64,000 nt of DNA, from positions 39,710 through 103,709 of the IMG/VR virus record IMGVR_UViG_3300014204_000004; one strand, 5' to 3'. A program made the translations under genes and the position numbers. The notes under the pieces were generated by a model. It saw only the letters and a program-made list of their open reading frames with translations, had not been told where the DNA came from and searched no databases. Of the stretch, positions 769-39,150 are shown one piece after another (the stretch's first letter is position 1; every line of letters starts with the position of its first letter). Origin of the DNA: a virus (Duplodnaviria; Caudoviricetes).

Positions 769-943
769 TTACCTAACCTCTCTTCTATTCTGATAATGCA
801 AATTTTTCTGTGCCACACTCTGTTTTTGATGCTGTGAAAAAAGTGTTTGAGGTTTCTTTTACTACTTTAAAACTATAACTACTTTAAAGAATAACTTTAA
901 AGGATTGGGAAGTCTTGATACTCTAAGCTTCCCAGTCGATTTT

Positions 944-1008
944 GTGTACCGAGACACAATAGTTTTGTGTACCGAGACACAATAGTGGGTGTACCGAGAC
1001 ACAATAGT
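944..1008. repeat. three iterons (GTGTACCGAGACACAATAGT), probable replication origin
   Basis: Exact 20-bp copies at 944, 967 and 989 (23/22-bp spacing, about 2 helical turns); adjacent AT-rich ACTTTAAA repeats at 861-901; directly downstream of the Rep gene. Confidence 0.8.
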
Positions 1009-6670: not shown

Positions 6671-8773
6671 CTATACCTCCTCGTTTTGTGTTACTACTGG
6701 TTCGCTTATTGCCGTGTTATGAATAAGCAGTTGCTCTAACGTGTCTACGATTAACGGTATCAAGTTACGAGCAACGCTTACGTCCTGTCTGAATATGTTA
6801 GGCATGCCCACGTTCAGTGATATTGAGTTGACGTTCTGGTGCGTCACAACTTCATGCGTTGATTGGTCTCTGAACACTACGACAGTAGGTGCCGCACCTA
6901 AGGGCGGTGCGCCTTCTGCCACTGCTTCGGCATCGTTGATGCGATGAATGTCTGTCATGTACTCTCTCAATGCTACAGGTGCAGGTACAGGAAGATTCGA
7001 TACGAACCCTCTCGCTCTTCTGTAACCAAAGAGTACGAGGTTCACATGCTTGAGCAATCTTTCCGGTATTATTCTCTCACGCAGAGCACTTGTTAGACTG
7101 TTTCTCACGCGCAGGTCCCATTCATCTCTGTACGTGAGATGCAAAGCTCTTACAGAGGGGCTATCTGGTACCTCCTCATCATAATCGTCGTCCTCATCGC
7201 ACTCTACACCAGGCTGAGAATCTTCTGGCATTGCGTTTACTCTGCCAAGAGGATGTTGTGCTGATACTCTGCCTGTGTTTATGGTCGCGTTAGGGTCGGC
7301 AGTCAGCATAGGCTTATCTACTCCCCACTCGACAAGCATCCTGTCGTTACGTGCGCCCACTCTTACGAGCACGTTGTTTATGAAATTCAGGTACGTCTGC
7401 GCCTCTTCTGGTTCGAGACCTGCTGTATCAACAAGCTCTTTGAACCCAATTGGATACTTGTACGTGAACTCTTTTACTCCGTTAACGAATCTGTTGGTGA
7501 TATTCTGTGCTATCTTGTACGCAAGCCTCGTTATCTCAGGTGTCATGAAGATTAAAGCAGGAGCACTGCGATACTCGAAGCCCCAACCCTTAGTCTCATA
7601 GGCACCGAGTGTCTTGTAACCTGAACGTGCCTTACCTGACAGATTGAGAGTAGGTGCGCCGATGAAATCGTCCAACATCTTAACCAGATGTTGAGGCGGT
7701 ACATATGTTCTACCGACACCGATGTGTATGTGACCACCTAAAGGATAACTGTGGCCTGCTACACCTAAGTCATACGCGGGGTACATGCGATAGAACCTTT
7801 CAAGCAGGTGCTTGAGAATATCGACAGCTTCTTCGGGTGTAGTTGCGGCACGAGGTCTAAGCTCGACCTGTGAACCAGCACCGTCTCTGCCTAACCCACC
7901 TTCAGGGTGCGACGTGGTTTTTATCTTGCTTGAAGCGTTAACCACCTCGTTGCTGTACCGACTTACAAGCTCGAACTCTGGGTCAGAGCCTAACTGAATC
8001 ATAAGTCTGGGGCGTCTGCGCTTTCTGATAATGACTCTCTGAAGAGGCATGAGGTCGAGTCTGTCTACTAACGCATCATAGAGTATCTTGTCGATGAAGC
8101 GTATGCCATAAGCAGAGTGCGACCAGTCACCAACGATGAGTATGTTGTTGTTCGGTATGTACAGACCCATGAATATATTGCGCCCTCTTGCAGGTCTGTC
8201 GCTACTCTCGCCATAGCGCACTGATACACGCATGACAATCTTTACCGCCTCGAACACGGTAACAAAAGGGCTAATGCCGTTCTGCTCGTCTGTCAGTTCT
8301 TCGTTGATAATCATAGCCTCTAGTGCCGGCTTGGCTGAGGTGGCTCTGTGCGAATCGTTGTCGTAAGAGAACTCGCCTCTCTTGGGCTTCTCTGCTACCA
8401 TATCGAAGAACTTTCCATACAGCAGATGTTTGTACGTTGCAAAGTGCGTGAGTCTTGGCATACGAACCGTGCGTATTATCTTGAAGCGTACAGTGTCACG
8501 CAGGTTCTTTGGTTCGCAGAAAGCGTACACAGTATTGTTCCAGTTTTCGCTGAGATTGAGGTACGCGTGTGCTCTGCATTTGTTGAAGTAGTCCTTCATA
8601 ATCTCGAACAGACGACCAACGTATTCTACGTTGTTGTGGTCCGGGAGTTGCAGGCTACCGTCAGCGTTTCTGTTAGGGTCTCTGACCCAATCGGGCAACT
8701 GTGGTATGACTATACGAGTAGGTCTACTGTCTGATACTTCGTTTCCCATATGATTGATGGTCACGTCACTCAC
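6671..8773 (-). CDS. phiEco32-like COOH-NH2 ligase type 2 (amidoligase) with long N- and C-terminal extensions
   Basis: LGSDPEF, GRDG..VELRP, GGHIHIG and GFEYRS motifs. Confidence 0.85.
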   Translation of the reverse strand: MSDVTINHMGNEVSDSRPTRIVIPQLPDWVRDPNRNADGSLQLPDHNNVEYVGRLFEIMKDYFNKCRAHAYLNLSENWNNTVYAFCEPKNLRDTVRFKIIRTVRMPRLTHFATYKHLLYGKFFDMVAEKPKRGEFSYDNDSHRATSAKPALEAMIINEELTDEQNGISPFVTVFEAVKIVMRVSVRYGESSDRPARGRNIFMGLYIPNNNILIVGDWSHSAYGIRFIDKILYDALVDRLDLMPLQRVIIRKRRRPRLMIQLGSDPEFELVSRYSNEVVNASSKIKTTSHPEGGLGRDGAGSQVELRPRAATTPEEAVDILKHLLERFYRMYPAYDLGVAGHSYPLGGHIHIGVGRTYVPPQHLVKMLDDFIGAPTLNLSGKARSGYKTLGAYETKGWGFEYRSAPALIFMTPEITRLAYKIAQNITNRFVNGVKEFTYKYPIGFKELVDTAGLEPEEAQTYLNFINNVLVRVGARNDRMLVEWGVDKPMLTADPNATINTGRVSAQHPLGRVNAMPEDSQPGVECDEDDDYDEEVPDSPSVRALHLTYRDEWDLRVRNSLTSALRERIIPERLLKHVNLVLFGYRRARGFVSNLPVPAPVALREYMTDIHRINDAEAVAEGAPPLGAAPTVVVFRDQSTHEVVTHQNVNSISLNVGMPNIFRQDVSVARNLIPLIVDTLEQLLIHNTAISEPVVTQNEEV

Positions 8774-8810
8774 TTTGTATCACCTCACTGTTTGTTTTTG
8801 ATGATAATAA

Positions 8811-8840
8811 AGTTTATCATAAAGTTCGTATTAAAGTCAA
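8811..8840 (-). promoter_or_regulatory. sigma70-like promoter
   Basis: TTGACT-18nt-TAAACT with TGn extension, upstream of the amidoligase. Confidence 0.55.
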
Positions 8841-8880
8841 TAACAAAAAACTCTAATAAATTCGATATGTTAATCGATAA

Positions 8881-8923
8881 GAGAGAAAAGAAAAGGGTGG
8901 TCAACTTAACGTCAACCACCCCT
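8881..8923 (-). terminator. intrinsic terminator
   Basis: AAGGGTGGT/ACCACCCTT stem followed by TTCTTTTCTC on the - strand after the GGCT gene. Confidence 0.65.
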
Positions 8924-8941
8924 TGCCGGATTCAATTAGGT

Positions 8942-9376
8942 TTAATCTTCAAGGCTGTTGTCTGGTGCTCCGAAGCCTGCGATGTATTCTATCCAGTCTT
9001 CAATCAGAGTCTCTTCGCGTAAGATGTGCTCCTGTGGCAGGACGTGATAGATGATGCCTTTGACAGTCAACACATTGCCTGCGTCATTTGTTATCTCAAC
9101 AGCGATAACCTCTTTTTTGTAACCGAAAGGTAGCTCCAGATTGTCGAGCATCTTTTCGACCACTGCGTTTACTTCGTATGCTTCTACCACGAATGAGTGC
9201 TCGCCTGTGCCTTCTCTGTCGAGCACAGCTTTCGGGTAACCGCCGACGTTGTACATCTTGCCTTTTACTCTGCCTTTGCCGAGACAGGTCACTTTGTTCG
9301 TTGTGCCTTTCTCCTGAAGTAGATAGTGATTGTAACTACCTTTGCGTAGCGTACCATAAACAAATGCGTTTTTCAC
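8942..9376 (-). CDS. gamma-glutamylcyclotransferase (AIG2-like)
   Basis: FVYGTLRKG, GGYP and LDNLE motifs. Confidence 0.9.
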   Translation of the reverse strand: MKNAFVYGTLRKGSYNHYLLQEKGTTNKVTCLGKGRVKGKMYNVGGYPKAVLDREGTGEHSFVVEAYEVNAVVEKMLDNLELPFGYKKEVIAVEITNDAGNVLTVKGIIYHVLPQEHILREETLIEDWIEYIAGFGAPDNSLED

Positions 9377-9673: not shown

Positions 9674-10087
9674 TCACGCGTGTCTTCTTCTCACGCGTGT
9701 CTTCTTCTCAGGCACAGGCTCTTCTTCTACCACAGGTTCAAAAACAGGCTCTTCTTCAACAACAGGCTCTTCAACAACAGGCTCTTCGTCAACTGCAGGT
9801 ACTTCCTCTTCGACTGGTTCAGATTCTTCCTCTTCGATTGGTTGTTTAGATTCTTTCTCTTCGACTTCTTTGAATCGTATCTGAGGTGCATATCCCGGCA
9901 TATTGTGCGTGTCTTTGGTCCACAACTTGCAGATGTTCTCTGCTACTTCTACCGCCTCTGCTTTGTCCTCGAAGTGTTTGTACTCTTTGAGGTAGCAGGC
10001 AGGTAGCATATCGATGGAAGGTTCGCTGTTTGTTACCTCTACTATTCTCAACCCGCCAGTTTTGTACTGTCTTGTTACTGTCCACAT
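9674..10087 (-). CDS. hypothetical protein with acidic EEEPV repeats
   Basis: AGGAGG RBS; repeated (E)EEPV(V) followed by a basic tail. Confidence 0.65.
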   Translation of the reverse strand: MWTVTRQYKTGGLRIVEVTNSEPSIDMLPACYLKEYKHFEDKAEAVEVAENICKLWTKDTHNMPGYAPQIRFKEVEEKESKQPIEEEESEPVEEEVPAVDEEPVVEEPVVEEEPVFEPVVEEEPVPEKKTRVRRRHA

Positions 10088-10102
10088 ACTTTCCTCCTAT
10101 GA

Positions 10103-10150
10103 TAGAATTATTAGGCGACGTTGATAAGAACCGCCGCCTAAAAAATTCTA
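10103..10150 (-). other. long RNA hairpin closing the pentamer array (3' end or processing signal)
   Basis: TAGAATTTTTTAGGCGGCG ... CGTCGCCTAATAATTCTA; one stem position is G.U on the - strand but an A-C mismatch on the + strand. Confidence 0.65.
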
Positions 10151-10171
10151 CAACATAGCGTAGATAAAAGC

Positions 10172-10913
10172 AAACTGAACAGTAAGTGACCTAGGTTAGC
10201 TCTGCCTAAACAGTGCGTTACGACCGGGACTGTGCAAAACCACAACAAAGCCCTGCCCTACTCTACCTGCACTATACATTAGCGCACTTTACTTTACCCC
10301 TCACTTTGCTCAACCAAACTTTACTGTCGCCTCGCACTTACTTAACTCTGCGATGAGACACCTTACCCTTGCCGTACATAACCGAGCTTTGCTCACACAG
10401 TACAGTGCTAAACCACACCATGACATTACTTTACAGCACCTTGCGACACCTTCACAGTACCAGAACAGCATATAACACTGCGGTGCCATACCTAAACTTC
10501 ACTTAAGTGCGCTCCGCTTTTACATTACAACACAAAACTATACTCATACATCAGTATACTGAACCATACCTGCACGATATATAACTAAACAATGCCGTAC
10601 CAACGCCTTACGTGACAGTGCTGTGCCATTACCATACATCATCAAACAATGCAGTACCTTCGCCTTCACGTAACATCTCTATACGATGCAAAACCACCAC
10701 GCAACACTGCCGTGCAATACCATAACTGAACCATCCATACAATACCTTTACGTGACATCTCTATACGATGCAATTACTTTACGTATCTATACAGTGCCTC
10801 TGCGATACTATTCTTTACCCTTACCACAAGAAACTGTGCAATACCAACGCTATGCTATGCTACGCCTTTACGAAACATTGGGTAGTATAACCATACCTTT
10901 ACTTCACTTTACG
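10172..10913 (-). ncRNA. putative guide-RNA array of NGY-NN pentamers in mostly 26/31-nt blocks
   Basis: About 740 nt with GT/GC nearly every 5 nt on the - strand (e.g. GGCAC AGCAC TGTCA CGTAA GGCGTT, 10627-10602); starts about 20 nt after the Cas7-like stop; no credible ORF. Confidence 0.75.
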
Positions 10914-10932
10914 GTGTCGAGCTTGCGCTAGA

Positions 10933-11583
10933 CTATGCTGTGAGCCTTTCTTTGACAGGCTCGATGGCGAGTACCTCGAAGCGGCCGTAACCGCCGTTTC
11001 TGAACTGACCAAGACCAGCAAGCTCACCATAACTTAGCAACTCGATGAGCATGTCCCAGGTTATCTCTTTGTTCTTGAGAAGTTTGATGGTGAAGCCGAG
11101 TATCAGACCTGCGTTGACATAATCACTACGTGCCAGTGTTACACGCGGGCCCTGAGGTGTCATAACGCGAAGAGGTCTTTCTATGTAGCCGTCAGGCTGG
11201 CTACAGCCGAGGTAGATGCGACGAGGTGTGACGAACACGTACTTGTCTACCTTGCCACGTATACCCTTCATCTTCTCCATTGTGGCGGGTTTGCCTTTCT
11301 TTTCTTTCTCGACCAGAAAGGTCTGCTGAAGAACTTCGCCGGCATTCTTGAGAAATCCGCGAATCATGTAGTCATATATGAAAAGCCGGTCGGTTTCTTT
11401 CTCTCTGTGAAACCCCGTCCAGCCCTTTTCCTCTGTCTTGTCTACTGTCGCGCTCTCGTCTTCTTCGATATTGGCAGGCTTCTTCGACTCGATGTAGGTC
11501 TTGTAAACTTCTGGGTCTTTTGATACTGTGCCGAGCATCTCTGTTACTAACTGAATATTTACCATGCGTTCATCAAAAATCAT
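10933..11583 (-). CDS. stand-alone Cas7/RAMP-like RNA-binding protein
   Basis: N-terminal strand VNIQLVTEMLG, helix IYDYMIRGFLKNA (cf. IPGSSLKGALR) and C-terminal Gly-rich loop GLGQFRNGGYGRF. Confidence 0.8.
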   Translation of the reverse strand: MIFDERMVNIQLVTEMLGTVSKDPEVYKTYIESKKPANIEEDESATVDKTEEKGWTGFHREKETDRLFIYDYMIRGFLKNAGEVLQQTFLVEKEKKGKPATMEKMKGIRGKVDKYVFVTPRRIYLGCSQPDGYIERPLRVMTPQGPRVTLARSDYVNAGLILGFTIKLLKNKEITWDMLIELLSYGELAGLGQFRNGGYGRFEVLAIEPVKERLTA

Positions 11584-11635
11584 TCGCCACCCCTTTTAGT
11601 ATTTTTATTTTTTGACACGTGGTACCACCACAGCC

Positions 11636-11955
11636 AGTAAAGACTTTACCTCACCTCCTTAACGATTACACTACAACACAATACCGTAACTACTCTGTGC
11701 ATAACCTCAGCAGAACATCGCATTGCCAAAACTGTGCCTTGCTATTCATTACCTTAGCCGAACTGTTACTTAACCTTCACTTTACTTTATCCACTAAACA
11801 TAACAAAAGGAGAAAACAAACGCTCTCACTTTACCGCTAGTGAATAACTTTGCAAGAGGAGAATTACGAACACCATTACACTACCAAACTTTACAATGGA
11901 GGTGTTGATATGAAAAACTAAACAGGCGATACTGTTACTTTGCTCTCCTCTTGCA
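11636..11955 (-). ncRNA. second NGY-NN pentamer array upstream of the Cas7-like gene
   Basis: Blocks GGTAA TGAAT AGCAA GGCAC AGTTTT / GGCAA TGCGA TGTTC TGCTGA / GGTTA TGCAC AGAGT AGTTAC / GGTAT TGTGT TGTAG TGTAAT (11753-11665); 12-bp inverted repeat at 11851-11862 and 11944-11955. Confidence 0.65.
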
Positions 11956-11974
11956 TTATGTATTACACATCATA

Positions 11975-13324
11975 CTACAACTCAGGCTTATCATCAATGT
12001 TCATGTTCAGAGCATAAGCCTTGAGCAGACCCTCGTGCGTCAGTACCTTTTCGGCAGGTACAACCTCTGTACGATAGCCGTCGGGATAGTGGTCGAGATA
12101 TGATTCTTTGGCGTAGAAGGTCAGACCCATCTCGTTGGTTACAACTCCTTTCTTCAGTACAGCGCCGTCTTCGGCCATAGCGTAGACGAATGTTGGGTAC
12201 GCGGTACGCATCGGGAAGATGTACACTACAGGCTTGTCAACGTCAGTGGTGTCAAGGTCAGGTAGCAAATCGTTCTTGGAAAAGAAATTCTTGAACTCTT
12301 TCTCACTCATGGTAATACCCTCAGGTGTTGTAGCAGGCACACGTTTAGGTGCTTGCTTCACCGGTTTGTTGAGAGCAAATAGCCTGTTCATGTGCACCTC
12401 ATCCCATATCATGGAATACATGTTTCGCTCTCCGGGCACACACTTGATGCCAAGTTTATCGCTAAGTATGTGCGCTAAATCTGCGAGTGAACCTTGAAGA
12501 ACGTGCGTTGGCGATACCATTTCGTTGTACCGTCTTCTTATCCAGAACAGACGCAACATGCCGCCCTTTACTTTCTTTTCTCTGTGTAGCTTGTACATGG
12601 TTTTGATAAGAGCAGACTCAAGCTGGTCAGACAGTGATAGTGGTACTGGTGGCTCAGCGACAGGATTGAGATTCAGAAATTGGTCGGTAACGTCGGTTGT
12701 TTTGCCGTTCGATGTTACGTGTAACAATTTCAATAGAGGAATCTCTTTCTTGCTGAGAACTTTGAAGCATATGATTCTGCCAGTAGGCTTTGTCACCTTG
12801 CTAAAGATGTGAGGCAAGATTCTGCACAGAGCATTAAGGTGATTACTGCATTGGCCGTACTTCTCTTTGCTTGCAATAATCACATCATCGGTAGTGAAGG
12901 TTTCAACGCGCAGTGCCAGATTGAATATGGCATTCAGAAGGTTCGCGGTCTGTGTCAAACTGCTGGGCTTGTTTGTTGGTATGATGATGCTGTCGCCGTT
13001 GACAAGTTTCAATCTATTTGATGTTGGTCTCTTGCTATCTTTATCGCCATTGTTTCTGTACTTCTCGAACGTCTCGTAACGTAGCGGCTTGATGTGTTCA
13101 GAGACCATCATTATGTATTCTGTACGTGAGCCTACGCCGAAGGCCTTCACGACGTGCGGATATAGTCGTACATACTCCTTCAGTATGTCTGATATGTACG
13201 ATGCACTGACCTTAAGCTGTTTGGCTATTTTGTAAGGATTGAATGTCTCGCTAACTGACGAGCATGTAGCCAATGATTCGTGTATGTATCGCACGACCTT
13301 GTTGAACTTTGGTGATGTTGACAT
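11975..13324 (-). CDS. multi-domain winged-helix-like DNA-binding protein
   Basis: PYKIAKQLKVSASYISDILKEY HTH-like motif plus a second HTH-like unit; paralogous to 13355-14215. Confidence 0.55.
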   Translation of the reverse strand: MSTSPKFNKVVRYIHESLATCSSVSETFNPYKIAKQLKVSASYISDILKEYVRLYPHVVKAFGVGSRTEYIMMVSEHIKPLRYETFEKYRNNGDKDSKRPTSNRLKLVNGDSIIIPTNKPSSLTQTANLLNAIFNLALRVETFTTDDVIIASKEKYGQCSNHLNALCRILPHIFSKVTKPTGRIICFKVLSKKEIPLLKLLHVTSNGKTTDVTDQFLNLNPVAEPPVPLSLSDQLESALIKTMYKLHREKKVKGGMLRLFWIRRRYNEMVSPTHVLQGSLADLAHILSDKLGIKCVPGERNMYSMIWDEVHMNRLFALNKPVKQAPKRVPATTPEGITMSEKEFKNFFSKNDLLPDLDTTDVDKPVVYIFPMRTAYPTFVYAMAEDGAVLKKGVVTNEMGLTFYAKESYLDHYPDGYRTEVVPAEKVLTHEGLLKAYALNMNIDDKPEL

Positions 13325-13354: not shown

Positions 13355-14215
13355 TCAGCTACCTTGTGATTCTTCCCATCGTATCTTCAACTCTTCCTTA
13401 TGCTCGTCTGCAAGAATAAGAAAAGAGTCAGCAATCTCTTCAGCCGCCATACGACCACGAACAATCTGTACCTCGGCTGATATGAGTCTCATTACTTTGT
13501 CTTTAAGAGTGAGAGGTCTCTCGTTGGTGCGCTTCTCAACTCTTTCGCCGTTGGGTTCTTGCTTGAGCAGTGCGTTCTTAAGGCCCCGTATGACATCATT
13601 CGGCATGTTGATAGCATCAGATGTGTCACCACGCATAATGGGAAACATTCTTCGCAACGCTGAGAAGAACTCTTTTACTGTGGTCTCACCAAGATGAGTG
13701 GTCGTGGTTACATCTGAGACCGTCACGCGGTTGTTTTCTTCGGCTATCTCCAAGAAGGCATCACGCATGCGCTCGATGTTAGCAAAGGCGGCAGGCGTAT
13801 TGGTTGGCACATGAATGATGACTCGTCCTCTGTGCTGTATTGAATACAGTCTGTTGGGTACGCTTGTCTTGTTGCCAGGCGTATCGAGTTCACTGTTGTG
13901 TGCCGCACGATACTGGTCATAGTCAGGCCATCTTACCTCTTGTGGCTTGAAACATCTGAACTTCACACCCTGCCCGAACATGGCAATTCTTTTGAAGATG
14001 CCTCTGTTCATGTCATGCAGTGTTTGGCAAATGTCGGTCACGTAGGTTTTGCTGGCGTCTGTATTGTCGACCACGCTGTTGACATGTATGGTGGTGGTAA
14101 TTCTTCGCGTGCCGATTAGCTCATTCTTAATATGACTGATTACTTTGTTGTATACTTCTAATCCCTCACTCATCTTTCTCCTCCTCTTCTTCGTAATGAT
14201 GACCACGATGTTCAA
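13355..14215 (-). CDS. winged-helix-like protein, paralog of the downstream gene
   Basis: Shared NKV..., Y(V/I).DI, NRL...PTN.P and T.xDV motifs. Confidence 0.5.
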   Translation of the reverse strand: MNIVVIITKKRRRKMSEGLEVYNKVISHIKNELIGTRRITTTIHVNSVVDNTDASKTYVTDICQTLHDMNRGIFKRIAMFGQGVKFRCFKPQEVRWPDYDQYRAAHNSELDTPGNKTSVPNRLYSIQHRGRVIIHVPTNTPAAFANIERMRDAFLEIAEENNRVTVSDVTTTTHLGETTVKEFFSALRRMFPIMRGDTSDAINMPNDVIRGLKNALLKQEPNGERVEKRTNERPLTLKDKVMRLISAEVQIVRGRMAAEEIADSFLILADEHKEELKIRWEESQGS

Positions 14216-30576: not shown

Positions 30577-30735
30577 TAGCCATAGCATTACATTATCCAT
30601 GGCACTAGCAATAGTTCTGAGGTTAGCCATAGCATTACCCTATCCATGGCACTCACCACAGCATAGTTCTGAGCCATTACATTACCCTATCCACGGTCAT
30701 AGCCACAGTTCTGAGGTTAGCCATTACATAGTCGT
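30577..30735. repeat. degenerate 47-nt tandem repeat (3 copies + partial)
   Basis: (T/G)AGCCA recurs at 30577, 30624, 30671 and 30718; shared TATCCA and AGTTCTGAG. Confidence 0.8.
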
Positions 30736-38793: not shown

Positions 38794-39150
38794 ATGCAGG
38801 TAAGAGCAACAGTAAGGAAAGGCTACAGCTACTATGGCAAGAATCGACTCATGATGCCAGAAGATGCCCCTTTCATGGTAGATACTGAGAGCCAAGAATA
38901 CATCGACCAGCAGTGGAAACTCGACATCGAAGCACCGCCTGTACCACCAGAAGTTCCCAAAAAAGAACTCGAACCAGAAGAAGAACTCGAACCAGAAGAA
39001 GAACTCGAACCAGAAGAAGAACTCGAACCAGAAGAAGAACCAGAAGACACAGAAGAAGAAGGTAACGACGAAGAAGGTACAGATGAGAGAGCCGTAACAG
39101 GCGCCAACAATCGTGCCATCACTCGCGCTCGTCGTCATAGAAGTGAATGA
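38794..39150 (+). CDS. acidic protein with ELEPEE x4
   Basis: 18-bp repeat GAACTCGAACCAGAAGAA x4 at 38965-39036. Confidence 0.7.
   Translation: MQVRATVRKGYSYYGKNRLMMPEDAPFMVDTESQEYIDQQWKLDIEAPPVPPEVPKKELEPEEELEPEEELEPEEELEPEEEPEDTEEEGNDEEGTDERAVTGANNRAITRARRHRSE

What the first reader, a model, noticed from the sequence alone, without database searches (positions are those of the whole stretch)
10103..11955. Lone Cas7/RAMP-like gene between two pentamer-coded non-coding arrays: candidate phage RNA-guided system
Seen: a 216-aa ORF (10933-11583) with RAMP hallmarks, including the C-terminal Gly-rich loop GLGQFRNGGYGRF. It is flanked on the same strand by about 740 nt (downstream) and about 300 nt (upstream) of ORF-free DNA in which GT/GC recurs nearly every 5 nt (N-G-Y-N-N) with variable bases between. 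No cas1/2/3/5/6/8/10 and no repeat-spacer CRISPR array were recognised in the window. Known: Cas7 proteins polymerise on guide RNA with a fixed nucleotide step. Inference: each subunit grips the constant (G)GY and displays the variable bases, so the RNA specifies a target non-contiguously, perhaps to silence competing elements or host genes. From memory this resembles the recently reported VIPR systems (Cas7-like protein plus GGY/NN RNAs), which I cannot verify here. In this locus the first position is relaxed to any base.
Basis: partly seen in the sequence, partly recalled or inferred. Interest (0 to 1): 0.97.

Follow-up and report, generated by a model that had tools for sequence, protein, structure and literature searches.

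The report
Phage VIPR locus with punctuated guide arrays
A complete 104-kb phage carries a lone Cas7-like (Vipr) gene flanked by long arrays of five-base guide-RNA repeats, a further example of the VIPR RNA-guided systems first reported in 2026; in this branch one extra base every 4-7 repeats divides the array into short blocks.

Summary
ORF 10933-11583 (minus strand, 216 aa) has a Cas7/Csm3-type RAMP fold. It is a remote, full-length homologue of the solved SUSP1 Vipr protein (profile-profile probability 96.5%).

On the same strand it is flanked by a 769-nt downstream tract of about 148 xGY-NN units and a weaker 34-unit upstream tract. The true period is 5.2 nt, not 5. Runs of pentamers end in one hexamer, giving blocks of 5n+1 nt (mostly 26 or 31), and the unit after each hexamer starts with a full GGY. 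In the 104-kb genome this signal occurs only at these two flanks.

The same grammar flanks the gene in 76 of 94 related viral and metagenomic loci (period 5.17 +/- 0.03). No accessory gene is conserved next to it. Between near-identical phages the array is replaced while its flanks stay about 98% identical. Between closer arrays, whole blocks of 21-36 nt are gained or lost.

This is a member of the published VIPR family (three bioRxiv preprints, 2026). It probably belongs to the "YNNNG" or "staggered array" kind named there. The scan has already flagged VIPR-like loci in more than 200 other genomes. No targets were found, and expression and the decoding rule remain untested.

The parts
10933..11583 (-). 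vipr gene: a 216-aa single-RRM RAMP (Cas7-like) protein. The model shows a long beta-hairpin thumb (about residues 132-156) and the G-loop GLGQFRNGGYGRF (190-202).
   Evidence: ORF. AlphaFold model with pLDDT 82. Top PDB matches are Csm3, type VII Cas7 and Cmr4: VIA Z 11.7/11.6/11.4, Foldseek E 2e-6. hhalign against the SUSP1 Vipr family gives 91.9% and 96.5% probability over the full length. Pfam RAMPs matches only weakly (E 0.046).
10171..10939 (-). Downstream vrRNA-type array: about 148 units of xGY-NN in 5n+1-nt blocks (26 nt x13, 31 nt x7, 21 nt x2). It starts at the vipr stop codon, and each block opens with GGY.
   Evidence: The signal is unique in the genome. The tract is C-poor (13% C) and rich in G and T. 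It folds no better than shuffled sequence (z +0.7). No Rfam family matches.
10663..10773 (-). Two copies, 82 nt apart, of a 29-nt stretch that covers most of one block (93% identical). Both differences fall in variable positions.
   Evidence: block parse.
10097..10158 (-). Strong extended hairpin (-27.5 kcal/mol) between the end of the array and the ribosome-binding site of the next gene. It could be a 3' end or terminator, or a protective stem, but it has no U-tract.
   Evidence: z -4.95; none of 200 shuffles folds as well. The consensus terminator scan found nothing.
11628..11804 (-). Upstream array: 34 units with the same xGY-NN grammar. Weaker, interrupted pentamers continue to about 11954.
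11851..11955 (-). Stem-loop domain of about 105 nt closed by a perfect 12-bp inverted repeat (TGCAAGAGGAGA), at the 5' edge of the locus.
   Evidence: inverted repeat I2. (-33.2 kcal/mol, z -5.1).
11969..11997 (-). Sigma-70-like promoter match (TTGATG-17-TATGAT) that could drive one transcript through the upstream array, vipr and the downstream array.
   Evidence: This is a consensus match only, and the count of such matches in the region is no higher than in shuffles.

Best explanation
The locus is a VIPR (Viral Interference Programmable Repeat) system of a tailed phage. It consists of a stand-alone vipr gene and two same-strand vrRNA arrays.

Inferred mechanism, by homology with the SUSP1 system: the arrays are transcribed with vipr, since the downstream array starts at the stop codon. 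Vipr protomers then bind the RNA one per pentamer. Each holds the constant G-Y and exposes the variable bases, which pair discontinuously with a nucleic-acid target in a competing mobile element or in the host. The likely outcome is silencing rather than cleavage, because no nuclease or other accessory gene is linked.

In this branch the first scaffold base is free. An extra G, which makes a full GGY, occurs every 4-7 units and cuts the array into modular blocks of 5n+1 nt. I take these blocks to be the individual guides or filament segments.

Shown here: the fold, the homology, the array grammar, its conservation across the family, array hypervariability and whole-block gain and loss. Inferred only: transcription, binding, processing at block borders, DNA rather than RNA as the target, and the skip rule.
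For: Protein:
- RAMP fold with thumb and G-loop.
- Full-length profile homology to the SUSP1 Vipr family (E 7e-7, then 8.7e-10). The SUSP1 gene's identity is fixed by PDB 36pp_D.
- In both alignments the G-loop maps SUSP1 D177/W178/R179 onto Q193/F194/R195. SUSP1 H17 has no His counterpart. The two residues that read G1 in the cryo-EM structure are therefore changed, while the aromatic and Arg residues that hold G2 and Y3 are kept. This fits the xGY units.

Arrays in the window:
- Period 5.2 nt, power 59, about 148 units, unique in the genome.

Family:
- 76 of 94 loci show a same-strand peak at 5.17 +/- 0.03 nt.
- Across 74 non-redundant loci (6,284 units), block lengths peak at 26 nt (26%) and 31 nt (29%). 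The first-unit G1 is G in 86% of blocks, against 24% in inner units.
- The array begins a median of -4 nt from the stop codon.
- L071 and L078 have about 98% identical flanks, but x, N4 and N5 differ at 42-63% while G and Y differ at 8%.
- L087 and L088 differ by indels totalling about 21, 26, 31 and 36 nt.

Context:
- The genome is a complete phage with direct terminal repeats, terminase, portal, capsid and tail genes.
- It has no Cas1 and the window has no CRISPR array.
Against: - No target was found. Self-matches under six decoding rules equal shuffled controls.
- No enrichment appeared in a local 0.87-Mb set, and two exact two-block scans of IMG/VR found nothing. These searches had little power.
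- There are no expression or binding data.
- Blocks of 4-7 units specify only 8-14 bases under the published NN rule, which is little for a unique target.
- The published type II guides have a structured tail after each guide. Here only one hairpin follows the whole array.
- The mapping of the thumb Arg (SUSP1 R138) differs between the two alignments (R152, D154).
Confidence: 0.85

Rival explanations
1. The protein-RNA filament is the same, but it acts on RNA. It would bind or cleave transcripts as type III or type VII Cas7 backbones do, or regulate the phage's own mRNAs, instead of silencing double-stranded DNA.
For: The nearest solved folds are RNA-targeting Cas7 proteins: Csm3, Cmr4, type VII Cas7 and Cas7-11. 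The structure preprint shows that SUSP1 VIPR can also pair with RNA. The arrays are fused to the vipr mRNA.
Against: The experimentally studied relatives silence DNA, and filament completion needed a DNA third strand. No match to the phage's own genome exceeds shuffled controls. No catalytic residue was identified here.
Confidence: 0.1
2. The arrays are not guides. They would be a binding platform or sponge in the vipr UTRs that titrates or stores the protein, or that autoregulates its translation. The variable bases would then carry no information.
For: The arrays abut the ORF on both sides. No targets were found. Blocks are short.
Against: Arrays turn over completely between phages whose flanks are about 98% identical, yet the scaffold and register are preserved. 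Whole blocks are gained and lost, and a duplicated block has diverged only at variable positions. A pure platform would not need up to about 340 units of unconstrained variable bases. In the homologous system the guide role is demonstrated.
Confidence: 0.04
3. The signal is a DNA-level feature. A period of 5.2 bp is half a B-DNA turn, so the tract could be a protein-binding or curved-DNA element unrelated to RNA.
For: 5.2 x 2 = 10.4 bp, which equals the DNA helical repeat.
Against: The composition is strongly strand-asymmetric (13% C on the gene strand). The signal is tied to the strand of the RAMP gene in the great majority of loci; the opposite-strand peaks seen in 13 loci seem to arise where Y is mostly C (my reading). 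The unit motif equals the published vrRNA motif. A half-turn period is not typical of DNA bending elements.
Confidence: 0.01

Closest known systems
Type II VIPR of Escherichia phage SUSP1 and the Pseudomonas fulva prophage (Vipr + vap1 + vrRNAs; bioRxiv 10.64898/2026.04.26.720920 and .720927)
   Same: Both are phage-borne and built on a small single-RRM RAMP with a thumb and a G-loop. The proteins are homologous (hhalign 96.5%). Both have same-strand flanking arrays of pentamers with a constant G-Y and variable bases, and neither has cas genes or a CRISPR array.
   Different: Read directly in SUSP1: a strict 5.0-nt GGY-NN period, about 15 repeats per guide, and each guide followed by its own structured tail and spacer. 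SUSP1 also has a vap1 gene next to vipr.

Here: period 5.2 nt, first G free, an extra G every 4-7 units, no tail per guide, the array fused to the stop codon, and no conserved accessory gene. The G1-contact residues H17 and D177 are not conserved. Protein identity in the aligned columns is only 17-19%.
VIPR systems with 'staggered' vrRNA arrays and alternative YNNNG repeats (same preprint: fig. S18 legend and the type-classification methods)
   Same: The legend describes abutting vrRNAs taken from positions that overlap by 1 nt, so that the end of one marks the start of the next. The methods list YNNNG repeats, a relaxed first G. Both points fit tail-less 5n+1 blocks of xGY-NN.
   Different: The figures and data tables are not held, so I cannot confirm that this branch, its block sizes or the GGY block start are what is shown there.
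Class 1 CRISPR Cas7 backbones (Csm3/Cmr4, type VII Cas7, Cascade Cas7)
   Same: They share the RAMP fold (Z 9.8-11.7 for Csm3, type VII Cas7 and Cmr4; about 7-9 for the type I Cascade Cas7s). Both polymerise on guide RNA at a fixed step, with a thumb that flips bases.
   Different: The CRISPR backbones use a 6-nt step with one flipped base, repeat-spacer arrays, Cas6 or Cas5 handles and adaptation genes. None of these is present here.

Membership tests
VIPR system | Vipr protein: a small single-RRM RAMP with a thumb and a glycine-rich loop, homologous to validated Vipr | tested here: met
   The fold matches Csm3/Cas7 (Z 11.7). The model has a thumb hairpin and a G-loop. hhalign against the SUSP1 family gives 96.5% probability, E 8.7e-10, over 174 columns. 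SUSP1 Vipr is confirmed by PDB 36pp_D.
VIPR system | Same-strand flanking tandem pentamer arrays of GGY/NN or a related consensus (NNNGG, YNNNG, NNNNG) | tested here: met
   About 148 xGY-NN units downstream and 34 upstream. This equals the YNNNG variant with GGY at block starts. The grammar is conserved in 76 of 94 homologous loci.
VIPR system | Variable positions are hypervariable while the scaffold is conserved | tested here: met
   In L071 versus L078, x/N4/N5 differ at 44/63/42%, G and Y at 8%, and flanks at 5%.
VIPR system | No CRISPR array and no cas adaptation or effector genes; usually on a virus | tested here: met
   No Cas1 in the 103.7-kb genome. No repeat-spacer array in the window. 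Terminase, portal, capsid and tail genes are present, and the record has direct terminal repeats. Only Cas1 was searched by profile.
VIPR system | Linked vap accessory gene (typical but not universal; stand-alone vipr genes are reported) | tested here: not met
   Only the vipr gene is shared between the window and 34 loci, and no neighbour cluster recurs among those 35 loci.
VIPR system | vrRNAs are expressed and co-purify with Vipr | not testable with these tools
   This needs small-RNA sequencing and a pull-down.
VIPR system | Guides match natural targets under the 1-nt skip rule | tested here: inconclusive
   There is no self-target signal, no enrichment in the local 0.87-Mb set, and two exact IMG/VR scans were empty. 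Power was low.
Type II VIPR (SUSP1 kind) | Discrete guides of 9-16 strict GGYNN repeats, each with a conserved structured 3' tail, plus vap1 | tested here: not met
   The period is 5.2 nt, not 5.0. There is no tail per guide and no Rfam or structure signal in the array. There is no vap.
CRISPR-Cas (class 1) | Repeat-spacer array, Cas1/Cas2, and a multi-subunit effector with Cas5, Cas6 and a large subunit | tested here: not met
   The RAMP gene is the only conserved gene of the locus.

The most novel reading that the evidence does not exclude
This large stand-alone Vipr branch (2,123 clusters at 50% identity) may use a code not yet described. In it the scaffold is only G-Y, three bases per pentamer are free, and guides are one filament turn long (4-7 protomers). 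Guides would be punctuated by a single extra G instead of by tails, ribozymes or repeats. Arrays of up to about 340 units would be fused to the vipr mRNA and would evolve by gain, loss and duplication of whole blocks.
Probability: 0.3. Interest if true: 0.7.

Novelty: new member of a known kind. Interest (0 to 1): 0.45.

Why it matters
VIPR is a very recent class of RNA-guided system, proposed to be older than CRISPR. Only the type II systems of SUSP1 and P. fulva have been studied in mechanistic detail.

- This locus is a clean, complete-genome example of a much larger stand-alone branch, with 2,123 protein clusters at 50% identity in the metagenomic library.
- Its arrays follow a simple, checkable grammar: GY plus three free bases, with an extra G every 4-7 units.
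- The protein changes match the RNA changes. The two G1-reading residues are changed, and the first base is free.
- Block size equals the number of protomers per filament turn reported for SUSP1 (five to six).

These features give direct experimental handles on how filament length, guide borders and the pairing code are set. The natural block grammar could also be useful for designing short multiplexed guides.

Tried and rejected
- A plain period-5 Fourier test is weak (power 2.5-3.2) because the register slips by +1 every block. A 10-of-10 strict GY count found nothing above 7.
- Tandem Repeats Finder reported nothing.
- Rfam gave no hit, including no hammerhead ribozyme. The array's RNA fold is no better than shuffles.
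- PHROGs and NCBIfam have no family for the protein. The PDB sequence profile gave only weak G-loop hits.
- blastn of the locus against GenBank phages found no match.
- A third candidate site (genome 38035-38309, minus strand) is coding and has a null parse score, so it was rejected.
- Self-targeting under six decoding rules equals shuffled controls.
- Cross-targeting in 0.87 Mb of related loci gave no enrichment. The small excess under the collinear rule is probably residual array-to-array similarity.
- Two exact two-block patterns scanned in IMG/VR gave 0 hits.
- A chain parse run without spectral limits runs through coding DNA in GC-rich loci and was discarded (one search replaced).
- The preprint's figures and data tables are not held, so the VIPR type could not be assigned.

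Full report
**The thing itself.** The window belongs to a complete 103,709-bp virus record with direct terminal repeats. It encodes terminase, portal, major head and tail proteins. ORF 10933-11583 lies on the minus strand and encodes 216 aa ending in GLGQFRNGGYGRF. Pfam's RAMP model matches only weakly (E 0.046), and PHROGs and NCBIfam have no family for it.

An AlphaFold model built on 40 homologues (pLDDT 82) shows an RRM core, a long beta-hairpin at about residues 132-156 and the glycine loop before the last strand. Foldseek and VIA-align both place it among Cas7-type RAMPs: Csm3 Z 11.7 and 11.6, type VII Cas7 11.4, Cmr4 9.8. Nearly every entry above Z 7 is a CRISPR RAMP protein.

**The periodicity.** On the gene's strand, the 742 nt after the stop codon are C-poor (13% C) and hold GY at 20% of positions, against 12% in the window. 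GY autocorrelation peaks at lags 5, 10/11, 16, 21, 26 and 31. Lag 26 (78 co-occurrences) is as high as lag 5 (81). The spectrum has one sharp peak at 5.2 nt (power 59.4) and almost nothing at 5.0.

A chain parse explains this. About 148 consecutive xGY-NN units follow one another with steps 5-5-5-5-6, giving blocks of 26 nt (13), 31 nt (7) and 21 nt (2). The unit after each hexamer begins with G in 22 of 31 cases, against 21 of 113 for the other units. An equivalent description is units of G-Y plus three free bases, with one extra G marking each block start.

The upstream tract (11628-11804) has 34 units of the same kind. Across the whole genome, on both strands, only these two flanks carry the signal. 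Random 600-nt segments give a parse score of 9 +/- 3.3, against 197 and 48 for the two tracts. A strong hairpin (10097-10158) follows the array, and a stem-loop closed by a 12-bp inverted repeat (11851-11955) precedes the upstream tract.

**What is in print.** VIPR systems were reported in 2026. They consist of a Vipr RAMP protein and vrRNAs of alternating GGY/NN. One protomer binds each repeat, the NN bases pair with DNA while every third target base is skipped, and the result is transcriptional silencing of rival phages and satellites. The preprint defines seven types. It names alternative repeats (NNNGG, YNNNG, NNNNG), stand-alone vipr genes and tail-less 'staggered' arrays in which the end of one vrRNA is the start of the next.

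**Membership.** I fetched phage SUSP1 (KT454805). Its vipr gene (L036:28474-29061) is identical in sequence to PDB chain 36pp_D, 'SUSP1 Vipr protein'. Profile-profile comparison of my family with the SUSP1 family gives 91.9% probability (E 7e-7). With a more diverse profile it gives 96.5% (E 8.7e-10), over about 175 columns covering the full length.

In both alignments SUSP1 D177-W178-R179 align with Q193-F194-R195; position 194 is W in the consensus of the diverse family alignment. SUSP1 H17 has no His counterpart. According to the cryo-EM paper, H17 and D177 read G1, W178 stacks on G2 and R179 holds Y3. The G1 contacts are therefore changed while the G2 and Y3 contacts are kept, which matches the xGY units. 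This is an alignment-based inference at 17-19% identity, and the thumb Arg mapping is not stable between the two alignments.

SUSP1's own arrays, read directly, have a strict 5.0-nt period and a tail after each guide. The window is therefore not a type II system.

**The family.** The protein has 598 hits in the word-indexed search. It has 2,123 clusters at 50% identity with E at or below 0.001 in the exhaustive library. I collected 94 loci: 4 GenBank gut phages, 31 IMG/VR contigs and 58 metagenome contigs, plus the window.

- 76 loci show a same-strand spectral peak at 5.17 +/- 0.03 nt, and most of the rest are short or truncated.
- In 74 non-redundant loci (85 arrays, 6,284 units), block lengths peak at 26 nt (26%), 31 nt (29%), 36 nt (13%) and 21 nt (11%).
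- The first unit of a block is G-G-Y-R-N, with G1 at 86%. Inner units have any base at the first position (G 24%) and near-uniform variable bases.
- Downstream arrays begin a median of 4 nt before the end of the ORF, so co-transcription with vipr is hard to avoid. Eleven loci have upstream arrays.
- The largest array I parsed has 338 units over 1.76 kb (L018).
- No neighbouring gene is conserved, so there is no vap.

**Evolutionary behaviour.** L071 and L078 are about 98% identical in the vipr 3' end and in the next gene. The array between them differs in unit number and at 42-63% of the x, N4 and N5 positions, while G and Y are kept. L087 and L088 arrays are 95% identical in aligned parts and differ by indels totalling about 21, 26, 31 and 36 nt, which are whole blocks. 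In the window, one block is duplicated 82 nt away, and its two differences fall in variable positions. Blocks are thus the modules of change, and the free bases behave as information rather than filler.

**Mechanism.** I commit to the VIPR model: co-transcribed array RNA is coated by Vipr, with one protomer per pentamer. GY is sequestered and the free bases are exposed for discontinuous pairing with a rival element. The outcome is silencing, since no nuclease is linked.

Blocks of 4-7 units match the five to six protomers per filament turn seen in SUSP1. I read the extra G either as a guide border (a processing or nucleation site) or as a once-per-turn register step. Whether the free first base pairs with the target, which would raise a block from 8-14 to 12-21 specified bases, is open.

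**What failed.** Targets were not found. Self-matches under six rules equal shuffled controls, in line with the preprint's report of no self-targeting. The local 0.87-Mb set gave no enrichment, and two exact two-block scans of IMG/VR were empty. The preprint's figures and tables are not held, so no type could be assigned.

**Verdict.** This is a new member of a known, very recent kind. The scan's index already lists VIPR-like notes in at least 210 genomes, and first readers had also noted the 26/31-nt blocks on this stretch. What remains of interest is the block grammar and the matched protein changes, which may or may not go beyond the preprint's 'staggered' and 'YNNNG' description.

Noticed in passing
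window 11975-13324 and 13355-14215 (minus strand): The two genes just upstream of the locus (449 and 286 aa) are weak paralogues over their N-terminal 140 residues or so (24% identity, E 3e-6). Neither matches any Pfam or NCBIfam family, and they are not conserved next to vipr in other loci.
   Followed up: partly
window 6671-9376 (minus strand): A 700-aa phiEco32-like COOH-NH2 ligase (PF14395) lies next to a gamma-glutamyl cyclotransferase-like gene (PF06094). They are followed by a Glu/Pro/Val-rich repeat protein at 9674-10087.
   Followed up: no
window 30578-30729: Three tandem copies of a 47-nt repeat (72-79% identical). Its function is unknown.
   Followed up: no
window 940-1007: Three tandem 22-23-nt iteron-like repeats (two identical), each containing GTGT...ACAC.
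   Followed up: no
window 38942-39075: Six 18-nt tandem repeats (GAAGAACTCGAACCAGAA-like), which appear to encode an acidic peptide repeat.
   Followed up: no
L018:1976-5330 (IMGVR_UViG_3300005541_000008): This relative has the largest array I parsed: about 338 very regular units (1.76 kb) downstream of vipr, plus about 1 kb of array upstream. Nearly every block starts with GGTAN.
   Followed up: partly
L006-L008 and L028: A few homologous loci show only a weak 5.1-nt signal (power 8-9) although they have ample flanking sequence. They may have lost or shortened arrays.
   Followed up: no
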